Part shown: positions 17,213 to 29,926 of the stretch, in pieces
Numbering within the stretch: the stretch's first letter is position 1
How the letters are laid out: the number at the start of each line of letters is the position of its first letter
DNA from: Candidatus Woesebacteria bacterium RBG_13_46_13
GTDB taxonomy: Bacteria > Patescibacteriota > Microgenomatia > UBA8517
Length of the DNA stretch: 64,000 bases
Direction: 5' to 3'
Assembly: GCA_001791995.1 (NCBI GenBank)
Contig: MGFR01000001.1
Coordinates: 242,638 to 306,637, forward strand
The notes under the pieces: generated by a model
The model's database searches: none
What the model saw: the letters and a program-made list of their open reading frames with translations, nothing else
Told to the model about the DNA's origin: nothing
Position numbers and translations under genes: made by a program

Positions 17213-17344
17213 CTAAGGTAATGATATATCAGCGATACTCAACAAATCAATAAATTACAATTGAGTTATACTTTCGGAGTGCCCGTTTGGCTGAGTATAC
17301 CTGCCCAAAAACATATTTTGTCGTAAAAGTAGTATAAATAAAGT

Positions 17345-17821
17345 ATGGGCATTAACTCCAAAATTGCCAAAGTCCCTTTTTTTGTTCTTTACCTGATACT
17401 TATAACCTTTACCTCATTTAATTGGGTTAGAGTTATCCTGTCCCAAAGTAGCTTTGAATCTTTTCGATCTCTACAACCATGGGATTATTATTTATCCAAT
17501 TTCTTTGCAACTAATTTCGGAATTTCCCAAAAACAATATTTCATTTTTGCTTTCCCCATAATCCTTCTGGGTCTGTATTTTATTCCCAAACTTGTCGGTA
17601 AATTAATGGGTCTGGACAAAAAAACCAACGTCAAAGGAGATAATCATGTTGCCATACTGCTGATTCTTCTTGTCGCACCTTCTACTTTGGGTTTACATAA
17701 ACTTTTTGCGGCAAACTGGAAAAGCTACCTCATGCCAGGAATCATTCTGATAGCTATATTTTCCATCTGGTCATGGTTAGATGAAAAAAAATACAAGACC
17801 AGAGAGAAAAATACCCTATAA
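17345..17821 (+). CDS. hypothetical polytopic membrane protein
   Basis: 158 aa with about four TM helices. AT-rich composition; first gene of the AT-rich block. Confidence 0.5.
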   Translation: MGINSKIAKVPFFVLYLILITFTSFNWVRVILSQSSFESFRSLQPWDYYLSNFFATNFGISQKQYFIFAFPIILLGLYFIPKLVGKLMGLDKKTNVKGDNHVAILLILLVAPSTLGLHKLFAANWKSYLMPGIILIAIFSIWSWLDEKKYKTREKNTL

Positions 17822-17827
17822 ATTGCT

Positions 17828-18502
17828 GTGGCAAATATAGACAATAAAGCAACAAAAGAAATTGGATTAAAGACGGTCTTTACCTTTATCCTAAACGGTT
17901 TATTTTCAGCCTTTTTTGTCACCTCCGGAGTCATAAATTTTAAGGAAAAGAAAATTATTGTCGGTCTTCTATATTTTGTATTGGCTGCTCTTGCCCTTTT
18001 ACCCCACAGATTTTTGAAGGTTACCCAGGCTTTAAAAATAGTTATTCTTATTATTCTTTTTGTCATACTGGCGGGAGTAGCTGCACAAGGTAATCCCATC
18101 GCGGAGCAGAAGTATGAATACTATAAAGTAGGGCAGGAATTTAACTTAAAATTCGGAGACAACACCTTCGCAACGACGGTCCGTAATGTTTCACAGGAAA
18201 CCAAGATAATAGCTCAAGGAAAAGAAGCAACCACATCTGGTCTTTTTCTTGTAGTTAAGGTGGATATTGTTAATCTTGGATCGGAATCGCTTGATTTTAT
18301 TACAGGAAAGGATCCTGAGTTAAAAGACAACCAGAAAAGAGTCTATGCTCTTTACGGGGCAGATATTCCCCAGGGAAAACTACAACCCAGCGTTGCCAAG
18401 AGAGTGTCGTATGTTTTTGAAATTCCCAAAGATTCAAAAGGATTAAGTTTTATTTTCAAAGACAAAACCGATATTGCCAAATCCGTAGATTTGGGGAGGT
18501 AA
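17828..18502 (+). CDS. membrane protein with C-terminal DUF4352-like beta-sandwich domain
   Basis: 224 aa. Three N-terminal TM helices, C-terminal LFLVVKVDIVNLGSESLDF...YVFEIPKD consistent with DUF4352. Confidence 0.45.
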   Translation: MANIDNKATKEIGLKTVFTFILNGLFSAFFVTSGVINFKEKKIIVGLLYFVLAALALLPHRFLKVTQALKIVILIILFVILAGVAAQGNPIAEQKYEYYKVGQEFNLKFGDNTFATTVRNVSQETKIIAQGKEATTSGLFLVVKVDIVNLGSESLDFITGKDPELKDNQKRVYALYGADIPQGKLQPSVAKRVSYVFEIPKDSKGLSFIFKDKTDIAKSVDLGR

Positions 18503-18513
18503 TTTTAGATCAA

Positions 18514-18801
18514 TCATTTCCCCCTTGGAGCCTTCTGATTGGAAAGGGTAGACTTGGAATTAACCAAGGCCTCCTTTTTTGCTTTAGTCCAACTTTTTAG
18601 TTGAATTTCCCTAGTCACAGCTTCTTTCCTAGTTTGGTACTTCTCGGAATAAACGAGGGCAAAAGATGAAAAATAGCGAAGATATTTAGCTGATTTTAAC
18701 GAACTTTTCCGGTGTTCTTTAAGCCTCTTTTCCAGATTGTTTGTTTGGCCGACATAAAGGGTATTTGAGGATGTGCGGAGGATATATATAAAGAAAGGCA
18801 T
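18514..18801 (-). CDS. GIY-YIG nuclease-superfamily small protein (UPF0213/YhbQ-like)
   Basis: 95 aa. FFIYILRTSSNTLYVGQTNNLEKRLKEH is the GIY-YIG signature. Confidence 0.8.
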   Translation of the reverse strand: MPFFIYILRTSSNTLYVGQTNNLEKRLKEHRKSSLKSAKYLRYFSSFALVYSEKYQTRKEAVTREIQLKSWTKAKKEALVNSKSTLSNQKAPRGK

Positions 18802-18869
18802 TGGCTGAGCATACGGGTCTGGACCCTTATAGACCCATTAGTACTGTATCATTCTATTGACGTTTCTTG

Positions 18870-20006
18870 CTATAACGTGAGTGGCTCGTAAATATTTTGG
18901 TCGCTTACTGGAGAAATATATTTCGGGGTGGCGGGAGCAGCTCTCTTTGCGATTTCACCCACAATTACCCTGATTAGTTTTTTTGCCATCCGTTCATTTT
19001 TCTTTAACGATAAGTTCCAATCAATTCCTGGCCTTATATTTCCTTCCATAAGGAACACATTGCCACTGTTGCTTACTACCAAATCTAAAGCATAAAGTTC
19101 ACTATCCACGTCGAGGTCTTGAGCGATGCGTTCGGCAAAGACGCGTACCTTTAGCGGCACTTCTTTTAAGGTTATATAGTGAAGTTCACCACCTTGATGT
19201 TCATTACAGCGGAAATCTCCCTTTTTTGCTCTCCTGATATAGACCTGGACAACTCTTTGCCCTACATAGATCATGCGAATATCTATAAACCCCGCGCTTT
19301 TGTTGTAAGCATAGCCGGTATTAAATTGAGCGAATGGCTGAAGTATAAATGAAATATTTTTATTTTTACGCATGATATTTAAAATATCTTTTTGGGGATT
19401 TAATGAGTCCACCAAATAAACATTGTTTCCTCCGGAACCGTATCTGTCCTTGAGAACAAATCTGTTTGAAAAGTCAGAGGCATGAGGATGAGCCGCGGTA
19501 AGTACCCTGATTTTATTTAGCGCAGCATGAACGCCAACAGAGCTTTTATTTGTAACAGCTACTGTTGGAATAGCAAAATCTTCAAGTACACGATATGTCT
19601 TTTGTTTGTCATAAAAAAGTGAGAAGAATGCCGGGCTATTAAATGGTCTTACTTTTGGATCGGAAAAAAGAATATTTATCCGTTGTTTTTGTTTTGAATT
19701 AACCGGAGATAATTTTTCAAAAATAAACTGTGAGTAACACGGCTGGTTTACTTTGATCCATTTGTTGTTTTTATATAACCAGTAACAACTTGCTGTTCCG
19801 CCTCCGATTATATCTTTAGAAGTGACAAAAGCGGATTTTAAATTATTTTTCTCACACGTTTTAAGGAAGTATGAGTAGGACTCATTATAATTAGTCCTAC
19901 CTTTACTTAGTTGGAAAGGTGACAGTACATTGTTATTCGATGAAGCGCTTGCGGCAATTGCGTTGGTGTAAACGACAAGAACATCAAAGGTTTTTATTTT
20001 AGTCAT
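18870..20006 (-). CDS. ATP-grasp family ligase (RimK/GshB-like), function unknown
   Basis: 378 aa. ATP-grasp-like motifs (RYGSGGNNVYLV, CNEHQGGELHYITL, EGNIRPGIDW). Strongly AT-rich compared with flanking housekeeping genes. Confidence 0.55.
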   Translation of the reverse strand: MTKIKTFDVLVVYTNAIAASASSNNNVLSPFQLSKGRTNYNESYSYFLKTCEKNNLKSAFVTSKDIIGGGTASCYWLYKNNKWIKVNQPCYSQFIFEKLSPVNSKQKQRINILFSDPKVRPFNSPAFFSLFYDKQKTYRVLEDFAIPTVAVTNKSSVGVHAALNKIRVLTAAHPHASDFSNRFVLKDRYGSGGNNVYLVDSLNPQKDILNIMRKNKNISFILQPFAQFNTGYAYNKSAGFIDIRMIYVGQRVVQVYIRRAKKGDFRCNEHQGGELHYITLKEVPLKVRVFAERIAQDLDVDSELYALDLVVSNSGNVFLMEGNIRPGIDWNLSLKKNERMAKKLIRVIVGEIAKRAAPATPKYISPVSDQNIYEPLTL

Positions 20007-20150
20007 AAGAATGTGCGAAGTAATTAATTTAATTCTCGTGAAGGCAAGCAGAATTAAATATTATAAGCAACTTACCGAGTATACACGAATTTACCTATAA
20101 TTGCTTGTAGAGCTAGCTTAGCTGAGCGGGTCGGTCTAGAACCTTATATT

Positions 20151-21371
20151 CTATTTTTCCCCAACCGGCTTTTCACCCTTTTTAATGGATACCAACGCTT
20201 TTTGAAGTTTCATTCCCGCTTCCCAAGACAATTCATCACCCTCGTACTCGCACCTATATAAACCCTGCAGATTCGAGGGAATCTTAACCCGTTTATCCCA
20301 AACCAAAATTACTCTCTCGTCATAAAGAACAAACGCTGTACCGATTTCTATTAGGACGTTTTGATTAATTTCAAATGAAGTTTTGGTCTCTTCTTCCGGA
20401 CTTTTATCTGCAGAGACGCTTATGACAGCAGCCTGACACTCTCTCATCTGATCGAGAATTTTTTTGGGGACTGGTATAGCTGTCGTTTCCTCCTCTTCGG
20501 CAACTACTGGTTCAAAGCCTCCTAATTCAAGTGAGGTTTTAATCTGATCAAGAATTTTCGAGTTTTTTCCATGAGAGATAAACACTTTGAGGGTTTGACT
20601 TGCCGCAGGGGGTTCGGATACGATGGGTGTTGTCGATTCTTCTTGTTCTTGAGGCTCTTGTTCCAAAAGTGTTTCCGGGGCGGTTGTTGGTTGTTGAGTG
20701 CCAACCGCATCGGTTTTTGAAAGTTGCACAAACAAATTGCCCGTTATATTCGCTAAGATTCCTACAAAATTTCCATTTTCTTTAAGAATACCGAGAGCTT
20801 CTTTGGCCCTTTCAGACGGTACCCCCATACCGACAAGAACATTAATGGCTATATCTTCTCTGGGAAATTTATTACGATCATACTTCTCATAAAAACTCTT
20901 GAGTATTCTGGGATTTAAAGCTGCTTTTATTAGGGCCTGTTTGTCTTGGTTCTCTTCGGTGGGCATAATTATTTTACGACCCAGATCTGTTAATCCAACC
21001 TCTTTGGCGTTATATCCCCCCGTCGTCAAACCATAGGCAACGGAAGCCCCGGTTAGATATCGCCAGTCTGAGCTTGTGGGAGACCTATTTATCGCGCCAG
21101 CTATGTCTAAAGGGGTTGCCGACTTAGCGGCAAAATTATCAACAAGAGCTTTGGCTATAACTAAAGACTCCTTCAACGTCACACGAGGAAAATCGGTTTG
21201 AGACAGAATTGAAAATTTTTTAGTTCCTGTTTCTCCTGTCATTGCACGAACATTATAAACACAAGTATTTCGGCCTGTCAAGTGTTTGTTCTGCCCAATA
21301 TCTGATTGTCTTTTAAACTTAACGTGCCCGGATAATTGGCGTGTCGTACGAATATTCCATGAATAAATCAT
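20151..21371 (-). CDS. two-domain protein: unknown N-terminal domain + C-terminal TIR-like nucleotide-binding domain (COG4271/DUF1863 type)
   Basis: The C-terminal 140 aa (KVFISHGKNSKILDQIKTSLELGGFEPVV...AAVISVSAD...NQNVLIEIGTAF...ERVILVWDKRVKIPSNLQGLY) align closely with the COG4271 consensus KVFIVHGHD..LGLEPIIL..AVVLLTPDD..RQNVIFELGYF..ERVCALYKGGVELPSDYSGVLY. The longest ORF reaches 21458 and would overlap tRNA-Gln, so the start is placed at the internal Met at 21371. The true start is uncertain (Met at 21242 also possible). Confidence 0.6.
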   Translation of the reverse strand: MIYSWNIRTTRQLSGHVKFKRQSDIGQNKHLTGRNTCVYNVRAMTGETGTKKFSILSQTDFPRVTLKESLVIAKALVDNFAAKSATPLDIAGAINRSPTSSDWRYLTGASVAYGLTTGGYNAKEVGLTDLGRKIIMPTEENQDKQALIKAALNPRILKSFYEKYDRNKFPREDIAINVLVGMGVPSERAKEALGILKENGNFVGILANITGNLFVQLSKTDAVGTQQPTTAPETLLEQEPQEQEESTTPIVSEPPAASQTLKVFISHGKNSKILDQIKTSLELGGFEPVVAEEEETTAIPVPKKILDQMRECQAAVISVSADKSPEEETKTSFEINQNVLIEIGTAFVLYDERVILVWDKRVKIPSNLQGLYRCEYEGDELSWEAGMKLQKALVSIKKGEKPVGEK

Positions 21372-21428
21372 CGGTTTTGAAGGTGTTTTAGGGCTATTCG
21401 AGGCGTCTCGGTCACTGGGGTGCCCTGT

Positions 21429-21503
21429 TTGGCTGCGGGATAGGGATTCGAACCCCAATACCAGCCTCCAGAGGGCTGTGTCCTACCGTTAGACGATCCC
21501 GCA
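21429..21503 (-). tRNA. tRNA-Gln (anticodon CUG)
   Basis: Reverse complement folds as a 75-nt cloverleaf: acceptor TGCGGGA/TCCCGCA with the U1-A72 pair typical of bacterial tRNA-Gln, anticodon stem CAGCC/GGCTG, loop CTCTGGA, T-loop TTCGAAT, encoded CCA. Confidence 0.85.
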
Positions 21504-21893: not shown

Positions 21894-21969
21894 GCCCCAT
21901 AGTATATAATCCAGCCTCGTTCGTTGACAACTTCGAAAGCAGCTGGAGAAGCCAAAAAGGGAGGCTACG

Positions 21970-22260
21970 ATGCAAAAGCCAGGGGAATTCGTACATGCAG
22001 GAATGGAAAGAGCTCGAAGGAAGATCTCGCCTGCGGTAATCGTTCTTTCTCTCGTGCTCTTCGTCGGTTTGCTGGTGGGCATAAAGATGCTCTTCGGCGA
22101 GCCAACCTCGGCAGAAGCATTTGCCGCGGCATTCGTTTGTCCGGAAGCACCGGCACCCTTCGTTCTTCAGCAGAACTTGGTCGCCGATGTTGACGGGCAG
22201 CGGCTCTACATCGCCTGCGCCTGGGTAGGAGGTCTTCCTCAAGAAGCCCCTTTACCGTAA
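21970..22260 (+). CDS. small TM protein, possibly the frameshifted N-terminal part of the downstream 3D-domain gene
   Basis: 96 aa with one TM (AVIVLSLVLFVGLLVGI). GC-rich. Ends 36 nt before the 3D-domain ORF, in a different frame. Confidence 0.3.
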   Translation: MQKPGEFVHAGMERARRKISPAVIVLSLVLFVGLLVGIKMLFGEPTSAEAFAAAFVCPEAPAPFVLQQNLVADVDGQRLYIACAWVGGLPQEAPLP

Positions 22261-22295
22261 GCGCGGGGGTTGCCGAGCCTGTTTCTGCCGCCGGC

Positions 22296-22622
22296 TTGGT
22301 AGCCACTGGAGAAACCGTCCTTGTGAGGACATCGCACTACTGGCCGCCCTTGGGTGGGCCAAACTGCGCTCGCTTTGAAAACGGCGAGTGCGTCAGCAGG
22401 ATGTCCAGCGGGGAAGCCTGGCAGGATTGGACCGAACGGGCAATCGCTTGCCCTACCGAATGGGAATTCGGCACACGGCTTGAGGTTGCCGGGCGTGAGT
22501 GGGTCTGCATGGACCGCGGCGGAGCCATCGTAATTGAAGATGGAATCGCCTGGGTCGACATGCTCACTCCAGTTGGACTGTTTCCGCACGGAACGGTTCT
22601 TGAAGCAACGCTTGTTCGTTGA
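22296..22622 (+). CDS. 3D (Asp-Asp-Asp) domain protein, YuiC/MltA-C-terminal-like cell-wall binding/lytic domain
   Basis: 108 aa with TTG start. SHYWPPLGGPNCARFENGE...VAGREWVCMDRGGAIVIEDGIAWVDM matches the 3D-domain signature. GC-rich patch. Confidence 0.55.
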   Translation: MVATGETVLVRTSHYWPPLGGPNCARFENGECVSRMSSGEAWQDWTERAIACPTEWEFGTRLEVAGREWVCMDRGGAIVIEDGIAWVDMLTPVGLFPHGTVLEATLVR

Positions 22623-22640
22623 ATAGCTTTCGAAGTTGAT

Positions 22641-22686
22641 TGCCGGGGGCAAAATCTATCTCGTGAGAGATGATCAGCCCCCGGCA
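22641..22686 (+). terminator. 10-bp perfect-stem hairpin after the 3D-domain gene
   Basis: tgccgggggc ...26-nt loop... gcccccggca. No strong T-tract follows. Confidence 0.35.
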
Positions 22687-23069
22687 TTCGCTTTCGCATT
22701 AAACATCCGCCTGGTTCTTGTCCAGCCTACGTCCCTTCGGGAATCTTGATCAGAGACCAGCCCTTCCTTGTGAGATCGAGCCTACCGTCCCTTTTCTGCC
22801 GAATAATACCGGCTCTCCTTGGCAACTTGGTTGCCTTACTGTTGAGGAAAGCGTGACGCGTCATCCTCTTCTGAACCCCCTCCGCAAGTTCTACCAGCAG
22901 GAGCAAAGAACAACGCGAGCAACCCAACCTCTTCAGGAACTTTTCGAGCTTGGTGAAGTCGTAGGCAGACACTGTTCCCTCCGCAGAGAATGGTGTTCGG
23001 ACTTACCCAGGCTAGTCGGCGGACATTTAATGTGCGACAGTAGCAAAATTCTACGCTTTAGCCTCAAAA

Positions 23070-29086: not shown

Positions 29087-29159
29087 GGCCCCATCGTCTA
29101 GCGGTCTAGGACACTAGGTTCTCATCCTAGAAACCTGGGTTCGAGTCCCAGTGGGGTCA
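29087..29159 (+). tRNA. tRNA-Glu (anticodon CUC), CCA not encoded
   Basis: Cloverleaf GGCCCCA|TC|GTCT-AGCGGTCTA-GGAC|A|CTAGG-TTCTCAT-CCTAG|AAAC|CTGGG-TTCGAGT-CCCAG|TGGGGTC|A. The D-arm TCGTCTAG.GG..TAGGACAC is typical of bacterial tRNA-Glu. Confidence 0.85.
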
Positions 29160-29444
29160 CACATTTGGATTCTGCAGAATTTTTATGGCTTTACCGAGGA
29201 CAATAGCTTCCGCAATTTTTTTGTGAGCACTGCCTATTACTCGGGCGAATGTGGGCTGAGAAATTTTCATTTTCTCCGCCGAGCCAATTTGATCTAATCC
29301 ATCAACTTCATATAACTTCAAGGCCTCAAGCTCATCTGGCTCAAGAACTACTTCTTCTAGGAAACGCAAAGGAACCCCCCGAGGTTTGAAGTAGTAAACA
29401 TCAGGATTATACCGAAGTCTGCGGGGAATTTTTGGTCTTGGCAT
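29157..29444 (-). CDS. DUF134 (UPF0251) predicted sigma-70-region-4-like DNA-binding protein
   Basis: 95 aa. MPRPKIPRR...YFKPRGVPLRFLEEVVLEPDELEALKLYEVDGLDQIGSAEKMKISQPTFARVIGSAHKKIAEAI matches the DUF134 family pattern. Confidence 0.7.
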   Translation of the reverse strand: MPRPKIPRRLRYNPDVYYFKPRGVPLRFLEEVVLEPDELEALKLYEVDGLDQIGSAEKMKISQPTFARVIGSAHKKIAEAIVLGKAIKILQNPNV

Positions 29445-29460
29445 AGGGATCTCCTTAACC

Positions 29461-29703
29461 TTACTTACTTAGTTCTTCCTCTTCCTTTTTTACATCCTCA
29501 AGTTCTTCTTCGAGAGCCTTTTTATAATCGGCAAGAACTTTTCTTTGGTCCTGCCTATCCTGCGGCCACGCCCAACGAAAATATCTACCCAAACCCCTAT
29601 TGTGATGGTGCAAGTGAGCTGGTCCGAAACCAAAACAAGGACCAAATCCTCTTCCGGTACCCGGTCCCATTCCCATCGGTCCTGCTCCGTCAAATTTTGG
29701 CAT
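29461..29703 (-). CDS. DUF5320-family small protein (Gly/Pro-rich N-terminus, coiled-coil acidic C-terminus)
   Basis: Start chosen at the internal ATG at 29703 (MPKFDGAGPMGMGPGTGRGFGPCFGFGP), which has a strong SD (ggaggggg). This is the typical DUF5320 N-terminus and a conserved partner of DUF134 genes. The 116-aa upstream extension lacks an RBS. Confidence 0.6.
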   Translation of the reverse strand: MPKFDGAGPMGMGPGTGRGFGPCFGFGPAHLHHHNRGLGRYFRWAWPQDRQDQRKVLADYKKALEEELEDVKKEEEELSK

Positions 29704-29926
29704 ATTTCTCACCCCCTCCGTAAGTAATAATGAATACTTATTCAGTATATGAGGTGTTTTGGGCTTTGTCAACAAATGCGGACAAAATTGAAGTTCGAGG
29801 AATCTTCCCACAAATCTCTCAATACAGCCACAAATCTACTAATCTGAAAGTTCGGGTAACGTAATCGTGGGTCACCGGATACCTTTTCTGCAAAAATTGG
29901 TTTCAAGGAGTAGAATATAGTTACTT

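What the first reader, a model, noticed from the sequence alone, without database searches (positions are those of the whole stretch)
17250..21503. AT-rich ~4.2-kb island inserted at the 3' end of tRNA-Gln carrying GIY-YIG, ATP-grasp and TIR-like genes
Nucleotide composition is visibly AT-richer from about 17.25 kb to exactly the 3' end of tRNA-Gln (21429), then switches back. The block encodes five genes: two small membrane proteins (one DUF4352-like), a GIY-YIG nuclease-family protein, an ATP-grasp ligase, and a large protein with a C-terminal COG4271/DUF1863-type TIR-like nucleotide-binding domain. tRNA 3' ends are classic integration sites for genomic islands. TIR-like sensor/effector domains are hallmarks of anti-phage signalling systems such as Thoeris, CBASS and Pycsar. 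I know of no characterised system that pairs an ATP-grasp ligase with a TIR-like protein. No integrase is present, so this may be an old, decayed insertion.
Basis: partly seen in the sequence, partly recalled or inferred. Interest (0 to 1): 0.8.

Follow-up and report, generated by a model that had tools for sequence, protein, structure and literature searches.

The report
AT-rich gene mosaic beside tRNA-Gln
The AT-rich block next to tRNA-Gln is real, but it is a patchwork of separately evolving genes in a Woesebacteria chromosome, and the proposed new ATP-grasp plus TIR immune system does not hold up: only the TIR gene is an inserted, stand-alone candidate anti-phage gene.

Summary
Observation confirmed. 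Window 17.29-21.43 kb is 38.9% GC against 48.0% elsewhere. The five genes have GC3 of 0.34-0.41 against 0.53±0.08. The block ends at the 3' end of tRNA-Gln(CTG). HMMs confirm DUF4352, GIY-YIG, a RimK-like ATP-grasp and a PF10137 (CAP12/PycTIR-type) TIR domain.

The ATP-grasp/TIR pairing fails: there were 0 ATP-grasp hits around 80 TIR-family loci and 0 TIR hits around 80 ATP-grasp loci. The closest relatives of each gene lack the other.

ATP-grasp + small GIY-YIG + an upstream tRNA-Gln is a conserved Patescibacteria neighbourhood. The ATP-grasp allele here was imported recently: 4-fold-site identity is 0.82-0.92, against 0.37-0.50 for flanking core genes in the more distant relatives. DUF4352 is a Woesebacteria-specific gene found in the same chromosomal neighbourhood elsewhere.

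Only the TIR cassette occupies a swappable slot. It carries its own 12/12 sigma-70 promoter and a 363-aa gene. Relatives hold a GDSL hydrolase in that slot instead.

The protein is a tandem winged-helix domain (BrxA/FokI-like), a disordered linker and a TIR domain. It is widespread (≥512 relatives in a one-genome-per-species collection), has no conserved partner, and is uncharacterised. It is most likely a single-protein NAD+-depleting abortive-infection module (inferred, about 0.5).

A 17/19-nt direct repeat brackets the block (P≈0.004), but relatives do not corroborate it. Interest is low to moderate.

The parts
21430..21503 (-). tRNA-Gln(CTG). Its 3' CCA end marks the right edge of the AT-rich block and the left edge of the swappable slot.
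   Evidence: ARAGORN and Rfam RF00005 at 56.8 bits. The tRNA matches L094/L095 across the whole gene, and homology stops at the CCA end.
21417..21435 (.). tRNA-proximal copy of an imperfect 19-nt direct repeat (GGGGTGCCCTGTTTGGCTG on the + strand). It covers the last 6 nt of the tRNA plus 13 nt downstream.
   Evidence: It is the best direct match of the tRNA 3' region anywhere in the window: score 27 against a null of 19±2.2. P≈0.004 in 3000 shuffles, and 0 of 478 real-sequence segments reach it.
17276..17293 (.). Distal copy of the direct repeat (GGAGTGCCC-GTTTGGCTG), at the left GC boundary. It is a candidate att-like remnant and is unconfirmed.
   Evidence: Homology with the closest relative, L091, decays at about 17295. 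No equivalent repeat was found in L010, L008, L095, L100 or L102.
21252..21281 (-). Consensus sigma-70 promoter (TTGACA-18-TATAAT, 12/12). It ends 10 nt upstream of the TIR gene's ATG.
   Evidence: Nucleotide homology to the TIR locus in L008 covers 20152-21304, which is the gene plus this promoter only.
20151..21242 (-). Stand-alone 363-aa protein with three regions: an N-terminal tandem winged-helix domain (aa 1-176), a disordered acidic/Pro-rich linker (aa 177-213), and a C-terminal PF10137 TIR domain (aa about 217-353, nt about 20184-20594). It is a candidate single-gene NADase abortive-infection module.
   Evidence: Pfam PF10137, E 1e-19. PADLOC PDC-S35, E 6.6e-13. AlphaFold models with pLDDT 82 and 91.7. 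Fold matches to TIR-STING, SPARTA and SARM1 TIRs. The N-domain matches MarR wHTH, BrxA and the FokI recognition domain. The start codon is supported by homologue alignment and by the promoter.
18804..20146 (-). ATP-grasp cassette: the gene at 18870-20006 plus its intergenic flanks. It is 92-96% identical to copies in genomes whose flanks are 73-88% identical.
   Evidence: blastn blocks. 4-fold-site identity is 0.82-0.92, against 0.37-0.50 for flanking genes in L095/L010 and 0.50-0.84 in the closest relative L091. The block is about 36-38% GC in every host. Pfam RimK, E 8e-13. The nearest solved structures are RimK-type glutamate ligases, E about 1e-6.
18514..18801 (-). Small stand-alone GIY-YIG (URI-only) protein of 95 aa. 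It is the conserved neighbour of the ATP-grasp gene.
   Evidence: Pfam GIY-YIG, E 1e-17. It is the commonest neighbour of the ATP-grasp family: 25/80 loci, 29/30 on the same strand, 1.31 per 10 kb within 1.5 kb against 0.04 per 10 kb at 5-10 kb.
17828..18502 (+). DUF4352 membrane protein of 224 aa, a Woesebacteria-specific family.
   Evidence: Pfam DUF4352, E 4e-8. There are 62 homologues with graded identity of 46-80%, named by sources as Woesebacteria/Patescibacteria. Homologues lie in the same Lon-PAP2-DAGK neighbourhood in L177 and L178, directly beside DUF5667 in L177.
17345..17821 (+). 158-aa hydrophobic, membrane-like protein with no family assignment. It lies immediately upstream of DUF4352 (6-nt gap).
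   Evidence: ORF list. No Pfam, NCBIfam, PADLOC or PHROG hit. It is absent, together with DUF4352, from the closest relative L091.

Best explanation
The block is a compositionally foreign, mosaic variable segment of a Candidatus Woesebacteria chromosome. The genome is GCA_035256625.1, the same species as RBG_19FT_COMBO_47_8. The segment lies between tRNA-Gln(CTG) and a DUF5667 gene. It is not one decayed island and not a multi-gene system. It has three kinds of content.

1. A self-contained TIR cassette: its own consensus promoter plus a 363-aa gene. It occupies a swappable slot bounded by the tRNA's CCA end and the start of the ATP-grasp cassette. Relatives carry a GDSL hydrolase or other genes in that slot.
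2. A RimK-like ATP-grasp plus a small GIY-YIG. This is a conserved Patescibacteria gene pair that usually lies just downstream of tRNA-Gln. The resident ATP-grasp allele was recently replaced by an allele circulating among lower-GC relatives.
3. A 158-aa membrane protein plus DUF4352. These are lineage-specific envelope genes of this chromosomal neighbourhood.

Mechanism of the one accessory gene (inferred): the tandem winged-helix N-domain senses an infection cue, most plausibly nucleic acid. This drives assembly of the C-terminal PF10137 TIR domains, which then hydrolyse NAD+ and abort the infection. PycTIR, Cap12 and TIR-STING work this way, but here no cyclase or second messenger is involved.

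Shown: composition, gene content, synteny, absence of co-occurrence, domain folds, own promoter.
Inferred: NADase activity, the trigger, the anti-phage role, and recombination between conserved flanks as the way cassettes are exchanged.
For: Composition and GC3.

Domains.

No co-occurrence:
- 0 ATP-grasp HMM hits within ±10 kb of 80 TIR-family loci from many phyla.
- 0 TIR hits in 746 kb around 80 ATP-grasp loci.
- No conserved neighbour of the TIR gene; the largest neighbour cluster is 7/80. None either in five Patescibacteria contexts.

Empty or alternative slot:
- L094/L095 have a matching tRNA-Gln, then a 195-aa GDSL lipase (E 5e-25), then the ATP-grasp cassette. Homology breaks at the CCA end and about 4 nt after the TIR stop codon.
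- L010 has other genes in the slot.

Ancestral synteny:
- tRNA-Gln lies within 3 kb upstream, on the same strand, of ATP-grasp in at least 8 lineages at 46-92% identity.
- GIY-YIG is enriched more than 30-fold beside ATP-grasp.
- DUF4352 homologues lie in the same neighbourhood.

Recent allele import: 4-fold-site identity 0.82-0.92 against 0.37-0.50 for flanking genes in L095/L010.

TIR cassette autonomy: 12/12 promoter; homology to L008 is limited to gene plus promoter.

TIR protein:
- Fold.
- The Glu of the NVLIEIG motif is nearly invariant and aligns with PycTIR.
- The N-domain is also fused to protein kinase and AAA_15 domains.
- At least 512 relatives in the one-genome-per-species collection, including archaea.
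- Only 3 hits in 2.9 M viral contigs.
- In L008 the same tRNA-Gln-adjacent region holds a PDC-S13 Bro-N gene, NADAR, SNase and NUDIX.

Literature: the PycTIR mechanism (PMC11224242); stand-alone TIRs are treated as likely NAD+-depleting effectors (10.64898/2025.12.03.692087).
Against: - No experiment exists for this TIR family. PDC-S35 is only a computational candidate, and its models match mainly the TIR half.
- Across 80 genomes the immediate neighbours of the family are mostly housekeeping genes. By my estimate from the top-ranked families, roughly 7% look defence-related, so guilt by association is weak.
- The fold also resembles nucleoside 2-deoxyribosyltransferases.
- All five genes share low GC3, and a significant direct repeat brackets the whole block. 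This fits a single import event better than a piecemeal mosaic.
- No donor genome was identified for any gene except ATP-grasp.
- The block is fixed in all four assemblies of this species, so no within-species empty site was seen.
Confidence: 0.65

Rival explanations
1. A single, old, integrase-less genomic island inserted at the tRNA-Gln 3' end carries a new two-component defence system in which the ATP-grasp ligase works with the TIR-like protein.
For: The two genes are adjacent and co-oriented, 145 nt apart. They share low GC3. A direct repeat brackets the block. The TIR domain belongs to an anti-phage effector family.
Against: Co-occurrence is 0/80 and 0/80. An 85%-identical TIR sits in L008 without ATP-grasp, and 90-92%-identical ATP-grasp genes sit in L010 and L094/L095 without TIR. 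The genes have separate promoters (conserved ATP-grasp leader). The ATP-grasp family sits among housekeeping genes in Patescibacteria. PADLOC has no hit for the ATP-grasp.
Confidence: 0.03
2. The whole 4.1-kb block (17294-21416) arrived in one event from a lower-GC Woesebacterium. Either site-specific integration at the tRNA-Gln end left the 19-nt repeat as an att remnant, or a single homologous replacement was anchored in the tRNA and DUF5667. The genes are functionally unrelated cargo.
For: All five genes have uniformly low GC3 with sharp edges. The direct repeat has P≈0.004 and lies exactly at the two edges. The block is identical in four assemblies of the species.
Against: There is no integrase. 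The repeat covers only 6 nt of the tRNA and is not seen in relatives. The genes differ greatly in their distance to the nearest outside homologue: ATP-grasp 92-96%, TIR 85%, DUF4352 80%, GIY-YIG about 76%. The closest relative, L091, shares ATP-grasp and GIY-YIG but lacks the two membrane genes and has 1.8 kb of extra DNA. That points to several events.
Confidence: 0.2
3. The winged-helix-TIR protein is not an immune gene. It is a DNA-binding regulator or a nucleotide-metabolism enzyme, with a TIR/nucleoside-deoxyribosyltransferase-like domain acting on or sensing nucleotides.
For: The N-domain resembles MarR-type transcription factors. The C-domain also matches nucleoside 2-deoxyribosyltransferases and DNPH1. 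Neighbours are mostly housekeeping genes, with class II ribonucleotide reductase adjacent in 4-5 loci. Many N-domain proteins carry only short tails without an effector domain.
Against: The best sequence and fold matches are immune TIR NADases: PF10137, PycTIR, TIR-STING, SPARTA and SARM1. The distribution is patchy across bacteria and archaea at 42-52% identity. The gene is present or absent at the same locus in relatives. Alternative fusions to kinase and AAA_15 exist. It sits beside RM/recombinase and PDC-S13 genes in Patescibacteria contexts. The RNR neighbours come from related Acidobacteria and are not independent.
Confidence: 0.25
4. The low GC is intrinsic to these genes, caused by amino-acid composition or low expression, and is not a sign of horizontal origin.
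For: The ATP-grasp block is about 36-38% GC in every host examined. Membrane proteins are rich in AT-coded residues.
Against: The deficit is at third codon positions. DUF4352 homologues track their host's GC: 0.33 in a 0.33 host and 0.375 in a 0.42 host. The near-identity of ATP-grasp at 4-fold sites to distant genomes shows actual transfer.
Confidence: 0.08

Closest known systems
PycTIR (Pycsar effector) and Cap12 / TIR-SAVED / TIR-STING (CBASS effectors)
   Same: The TIR sub-family is the same (PF10137, E 1e-19; weak direct match to PycTIR 8jsj; top fold hits are TIR-STING 9lmq and 7un8). [quoted passage not shown] In the known proteins, ligand binding drives oligomerisation and NAD+ depletion (PMC11224242).
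   Different: There is no cyclase (PycC or CD-NTase) next to it, here or in 80 other loci. The sensor is a tandem winged-helix domain rather than a CNBD, SAVED or STING domain. Any trigger must therefore be sensed directly rather than through a second messenger.
PADLOC candidate PDC-S35 (single-gene, TIR-containing phage-defence candidate)
   Same: It is a single-gene architecture with a C-terminal TIR domain. Five PDC-S35 models hit at E 4e-10 to 7e-13.
   Different: PDC-S35 models are 230-280 positions long and align mainly to the linker and TIR half. The 176-aa tandem wHTH domain is largely outside them. PDC-S35 is itself unvalidated, and no paper mentions it.
BrxA (BREX) and the FokI / N.BspD6I DNA-recognition domains
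tRNA-linked genomic islands and defence hot spots
   Same: The segment abuts the 3' end of a tRNA gene. It is compositionally atypical. Cargo varies between related genomes at the same site, and in L008 the site holds several defence-like genes.
   Different: There is no integrase. The direct repeat is short and uncorroborated. Most of the 'cargo' (ATP-grasp, GIY-YIG, DUF4352) is lineage-typical at this locus rather than foreign.
RimK (ribosomal protein S6 / poly-alpha-L-glutamate ligase) family ATP-grasp enzymes
   Same: The ATP-grasp domain matches PF08443 above its cut-off. The nearest solved structures are RimK-type glutamate ligases.
   Different: Only the C-terminal half aligns. It scores 53 bits against the 143-bit TIGR00768 cut-off. 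It has a distinct conserved N-terminal region of about 120 aa. The substrate is unknown.

Membership tests
Proposed ATP-grasp + TIR two-gene defence system | The two gene families recur as neighbours in independent genomes | tested here: not met
   0 ATP-grasp-family hits within ±10 kb of 80 TIR-family loci. 0 TIR-family hits in 80 ATP-grasp loci covering 746 kb. The nearest homologues of each gene lack the other.
tRNA-targeted integrative genomic island | Lies directly at the 3' end of a tRNA gene and is compositionally atypical | tested here: met
   The tRNA-Gln 3' end is at 21430. GC is 38.9% against 48.0%, and GC3 is 0.34-0.41 against 0.53±0.08.
tRNA-targeted integrative genomic island | Flanking direct repeats that duplicate the tRNA 3' end (attL/attR) | tested here: inconclusive
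   A 17/19-nt repeat lies at 17276-17293 and 21417-21435, with P≈0.004. It includes only 6 nt of the tRNA, and no counterpart is found in five related loci.
tRNA-targeted integrative genomic island | Integrase or recombinase gene, or a remnant of one | tested here: not met
   The five genes have no recombinase domain. Only 132 + 187 nt of non-coding DNA remain.
tRNA-targeted integrative genomic island | The whole block is absent from the site in related genomes | tested here: not met
   ATP-grasp (often with a small GIY-YIG nearby) follows tRNA-Gln in at least 8 lineages. DUF4352 lies next to DUF5667 in L177. Only the TIR gene is replaced, in L094/L095 and L010.
CBASS / Pycsar TIR effectors (Cap12, PycTIR) | PF10137-type TIR domain | tested here: met
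   70.9 bits against a 24.7-bit cut-off. All 30 family members hit.
CBASS / Pycsar TIR effectors (Cap12, PycTIR) | Adjacent CD-NTase or pyrimidine cyclase gene | tested here: not met
   None among the window's genes. There is no conserved neighbour in 80 loci.
CBASS / Pycsar TIR effectors (Cap12, PycTIR) | N-terminal cyclic-nucleotide sensor (SAVED, STING or CNBD) | tested here: not met
Thoeris | ThsB-type TIR protein next to a ThsA-type effector (SIR2, TM or Macro with a SLOG sensor) | tested here: not met
   No Ths model appears among the listed PADLOC hits for the five proteins. The TIR sub-family is PF10137, not PF08937. No effector gene is adjacent.
PADLOC PDC-S35 | Full-length match to the PDC-S35 models | tested here: inconclusive
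   E 6.6e-13 to 4e-10, but the alignments cover mostly the linker and TIR half. There is no curated cut-off.
TIR NADase | Conserved catalytic glutamate and NAD+ glycohydrolase activity | not testable with these tools
   The Glu of the NVLIEIG motif (residue 299 of 363) is conserved in at least 90% of 30 homologues and aligns with PycTIR's HLEFG. Activity needs an enzyme assay.
RimK family (TIGR00768) | Score above the curated family cut-off | tested here: not met
   53.1 bits against a 143.4-bit cut-off. The Pfam RimK ATP-grasp domain is met, at 48.8 against 21 bits.

The most novel reading that the evidence does not exclude
The tandem winged-helix-TIR protein is a founding example of an uncharacterised, very widespread single-protein immune sensor. 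It has at least 512 relatives in a one-genome-per-species collection, across many bacterial phyla, CPR bacteria and archaea. In this reading its BrxA/FokI-like DNA-recognition domain detects invading nucleic acid directly and switches on a PF10137 TIR NADase, with no cyclase or second messenger. Separately, the RimK-like ATP-grasp + small GIY-YIG + tRNA-Gln triad could be an unrecognised functional or selfish module in Patescibacteria, because its ATP-grasp allele sweeps between diverged genomes.
Probability: 0.35. Interest if true: 0.55.

Novelty: new member of a known kind. Interest (0 to 1): 0.3.

Why it matters
The headline claim was a new defence system that pairs an ATP-grasp ligase with a TIR protein. 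That would have been a new class of system, and it is not supported.

What remains is more modest. First, there is a tRNA-linked recombination hot spot in an ultra-small (CPR) bacterium, and defence content and genome plasticity in such bacteria are poorly known. Second, there is a stand-alone winged-helix-TIR gene from a large uncharacterised family. If it senses nucleic acid directly, it would add a messenger-free route to TIR activation, alongside the Pycsar and CBASS effectors of the same TIR sub-family.

Two further points bear on how tiny genomes exchange alleles: the single-gene ATP-grasp allele sweep, and the tight ATP-grasp/GIY-YIG/tRNA-Gln linkage. Neither is explained.

Tried and rejected
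- **att-type repeats in relatives.** I searched L010, L008, L095, L100 and L102. Nothing convincing turned up; the best was 13/14 nt in L010, z about 2.7.
- **Structured RNA.** I looked in the block and in the conserved ATP-grasp leader. Rfam finds only the tRNA, and the leader fold has z = 0.06.
- **A conserved partner for the TIR gene.** Neighbour clustering over 80 loci gave a maximum of 7/80, which was class II RNR in related Acidobacteria. Five Patescibacteria contexts showed nothing shared. The 356-aa and 342-aa downstream genes are unrelated to each other and to ATP-grasp, and have no Pfam or PADLOC hit.
- **Defence-island enrichment.** I scanned 150 immediate neighbours with Pfam and PADLOC. 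The signal was weak: type I RM S subunit, dGTPase, AbiEi, Schlafen/AlbA_2 and integrases, which I estimate at roughly 7% from the top-ranked families shown.
- **A phage origin.** Only 3 viral contigs carry the family. PHROG hits are weak and of unknown function.
- **Literature.** There are no papers on PDC-S35. PF10137 papers treat stand-alone TIRs only in passing.
- **A within-species empty site.** All four assemblies of this species carry the full block.
- **An aborted call.** One search failed because of a coordinate error and was repeated.

Full report
**1.

The interval 17250-21429 is 38.9% GC, against 48.0% for the rest of the window. It is the lowest-GC 4.2-kb stretch in the 64 kb, about 3.3 SD below the mean. 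The deficit sits at synonymous positions. The five genes have GC3 of 0.34-0.41, against 0.53±0.08 for 61 other ORFs, and three of them are lower than every other gene.

ARAGORN and Rfam place tRNA-Gln(CTG) at 21430-21503 on the minus strand, so the block ends at the tRNA's CCA end.

HMM searches confirm four of the gene calls and leave the fifth unassigned:
- DUF4352, E 4e-8
- GIY-YIG, E 1e-17
- RimK-like ATP-grasp, E 8e-13
- PF10137 'CAP12/Pycsar effector TIR' domain, E 1e-19, plus PADLOC PDC-S35 hits
- The 158-aa membrane-like protein, with no hit in any library

There is no recombinase, and there is no room for a remnant of one.

The window is contig DATEXV010000001.1 of GCA_035256625.1. 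The same block occurs at about 99.5-100% identity in three other assemblies. One of them is Candidatus Woesebacteria RBG_19FT_COMBO_47_8.

**2. The ATP-grasp/TIR pairing fails**

The TIR protein belongs to a large family with one fixed architecture. More than 2,000 protein clusters match it. At least 512 relatives were confirmed in a collection of one genome per species, spanning Acidobacteriota, Proteobacteria, Planctomycetota, Clostridia, Bacteroidota, Chloroflexota and archaea.

- Around the best 80 of those TIR loci (±10 kb), an HMM of the ATP-grasp family finds nothing.
- No neighbour family recurs in more than 7 of the 80.
- Around 80 metagenomic ATP-grasp loci (746 kb), an HMM of the TIR family finds nothing.
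- An 85%-identical TIR gene (L008) and a 74%-identical one (L004-L007) have no ATP-grasp nearby.
- ATP-grasp genes 90-92% identical to the window's (L010, L094/L095, L097, L099, L100) have no TIR.

**3. What each part is**

*ATP-grasp and GIY-YIG.*
- The commonest neighbour of the ATP-grasp family is a small URI-only GIY-YIG gene. It is present in 25/80 loci, and 29/30 copies are on the same strand.
- Its density is 1.31 per 10 kb within 1.5 kb of the ATP-grasp, against 0.04 per 10 kb at 5-10 kb.
- The other recurrent neighbours are housekeeping genes: RRM protein, Obg, DEAD helicase and TypA.
- A tRNA-Gln (CTG or TTG) lies within 3 kb upstream, on the same strand, in at least 8 distinct lineages whose ATP-grasp is 46-92% identical to the window's.

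The arrangement tRNA-Gln -> ATP-grasp (± GIY-YIG) is therefore an old Patescibacteria arrangement, not island cargo.

*DUF4352.*
- Its family has 62 members with graded identity of 46-80%. Where a source names the organism, it is Woesebacteria or Patescibacteria.
- Homologues lie in the same Lon-PAP2-DAGK neighbourhood in other genomes, directly beside DUF5667 in L177.

**4. Why the block is nevertheless AT-rich**

The ATP-grasp cassette (18804-20146, the gene plus both intergenic flanks) is 92-96% identical at the nucleotide level to copies in genomes whose flanks are only 73-88% identical.

| Comparison | Identity at 4-fold degenerate sites |
|---|---|
| ATP-grasp gene, all relatives | 0.82-0.92 |
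| Flanking core genes, L095 and L010 (GluRS, Lon, BacA and others) | 0.37-0.50 |
| Flanking core genes, closest relative L091 | 0.50-0.84 |

The adjacent GIY-YIG is only 43-67% identical at the protein level. The cassette is about 36-38% GC in every host, while the rest of each fetched locus ranges from 38 to 47% GC.

This points to recent replacement of the resident allele by one circulating among lower-GC relatives. No donor was found for the other four genes. Their uniformly low GC3 suggests a similar origin, but that is an inference.

**5. The TIR cassette is the real insertion**

In L094/L095 the tRNA-Gln matches the window's across the whole gene. Homology with the window stops at the CCA end and resumes about 4 nt after the TIR stop codon, at the ATP-grasp leader. 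Between those points lies a 195-aa GDSL-type hydrolase (E 5e-25) instead of TIR. L010 holds a 596-aa and a 130-aa gene in that position.

A 12/12 sigma-70 consensus promoter (21281-21252) ends 10 nt before the ATG at 21242. This agrees with the N-termini of homologues. The gene is therefore 363 aa, and the 406-aa annotation is too long.

Nucleotide homology with L008 spans only the gene plus this promoter (20152-21304). In L008 the gene is again downstream of tRNA-Gln(CTG). It lies in an 11-kb variable region that also contains a Bro-N protein matching PADLOC PDC-S13 (E 3.5e-117), NADAR, SNase, NUDIX and an AAA ATPase. In L004-L007 it follows tRNA-Ser and lies near a serine recombinase and a type IIG restriction enzyme.

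**6. The protein**

AlphaFold models (pLDDT 82 for the full length, 91.7 for the N-domain) show three regions:
- two consecutive winged-helix units (aa 1-176);
- a disordered acidic/Pro-rich linker (aa 177-213);
- a flavodoxin-like domain (aa 217-353).

The C-domain's best PDB fold matches are bacterial TIR-STING, SPARTA TIR and SARM1 TIR, followed by nucleoside 2-deoxyribosyltransferases. By sequence, the only solved relative is PycTIR (E 0.014), aligned across the NVLIEIG motif, whose Glu is nearly invariant.

A library-wide search with the N-domain finds 1,271 representatives. Besides TIR, it is fused to protein kinase domains (4 of 80 examined), to an AAA_15 ATPase (1), and to short tails of unknown function. 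Many apparently short hits are truncated TIR genes.

The layout parallels PycTIR (CNBD + TIR), in which ligand binding causes oligomerisation and NAD+ depletion (PMC11224242). Here the sensor looks DNA-binding, and no cyclase is ever adjacent.

My best mechanistic guess is direct sensing of an infection-associated nucleic acid or protein, followed by TIR assembly, NAD+ hydrolysis and abortive infection. This is inference. The family is uncharacterised, and its neighbours in other phyla are mostly housekeeping genes, with only roughly 7% defence-like by my estimate. I give the immune role about 0.5.

**7. The island question**

A 19-nt imperfect direct repeat brackets the AT-rich block:
- 17276-17293: GGAGTGCCC-GTTTGGCTG
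- 21417-21435: GGGGTGCCCTGTTTGGCTG

It overlaps the last 6 nt of the tRNA. It is the best direct match of the tRNA 3' region in the window. P≈0.004 by shuffling, and 0 of 478 real-sequence segments reach its score.

Against it:
- there is no integrase;
- the repeat barely includes the tRNA;
- no relative shows a counterpart;
- the closest relative (L091: flanks 86-88%, ATP-grasp 96.5%) shares ATP-grasp and GIY-YIG, lacks the two membrane genes and carries 1.8 kb of other DNA;
- the five genes differ widely in distance to their nearest outside homologues.

The simplest overall description is a tRNA-Gln-linked recombination hot spot. Gene-sized cassettes are exchanged there, probably by recombination between conserved flanks (inferred).

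**8. Verdict**

What is present is a new member of known kinds: a stand-alone TIR candidate defence gene in a tRNA-linked variable region. Interest is low to moderate.

Two side observations remain unexplained: the single-gene ATP-grasp allele sweep, and the tight ATP-grasp/GIY-YIG/tRNA-Gln linkage in Patescibacteria.

Noticed in passing
window 18514-20146; loci L091-L170: A small URI-only GIY-YIG gene is more than 30-fold enriched within 1.5 kb of the RimK-like ATP-grasp gene across Patescibacteria. 29/30 copies are on the same strand, and the gene order varies. tRNA-Gln lies upstream in at least 8 lineages. The reason for this three-way linkage is unknown.
   Followed up: partly
window 18804-20146: The ATP-grasp gene and its intergenic flanks are 92-96% identical to copies in genomes whose core genes are near saturation at synonymous sites (4-fold identity 0.82-0.92 against 0.37-0.50). 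The adjacent GIY-YIG is only 43-67% identical. This is a one-gene allele sweep with sharp edges at the neighbouring genes' start and stop codons.
   Followed up: partly
window 29087-29811: Two small ORFs (29157-29444 and 29461-29811) directly after tRNA-Glu(CTC) have GC3 of about 0.37, among the lowest in the window. This is a second tRNA-adjacent low-GC patch.
   Followed up: no
window 21900-22750: Just beyond the tRNA and the DUF3307 gene there is a GC-rich patch, up to 0.60 in 500-nt windows. Its 96-aa and 108-aa ORFs have homologues in L010 (55-70% aa) and no Pfam family.
   Followed up: no
window 21243-21458: The public annotation of the TIR gene (406 aa, start 21371) and the maximal ORF (start 21458, overlapping the tRNA) are too long. 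A perfect sigma-70 promoter lies inside the extension, and homologues start at the equivalent of 21242.
   Followed up: yes
L008 3025-14486: In a related genome the region downstream of tRNA-Gln is 11 kb long. It holds the TIR gene plus a Bro-N protein matching PADLOC PDC-S13 (E 3.5e-117), NADAR, SNase, NUDIX and an AAA ATPase. It resembles a small defence island in a CPR bacterium.
   Followed up: partly
L109 5141-5212; L115 3260-3331: ARAGORN reports a tRNA with a four-base anticodon (ctgg) about 2 kb downstream of the ATP-grasp gene in two metagenomic loci.
   Followed up: no
L091 3057-3698: In the closest relative, the GIY-YIG domain is fused to a C-terminal extension of about 120 aa that is rich in Lys and Glu, giving 213 aa in total.
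   Followed up: no
L012, L021, L045 and other Acidobacteriota loci: The winged-helix-TIR gene lies 12-55 nt from a class II (B12-dependent) ribonucleotide reductase gene in 4-7 loci. These are probably related genomes, so independence is unclear.
   Followed up: no
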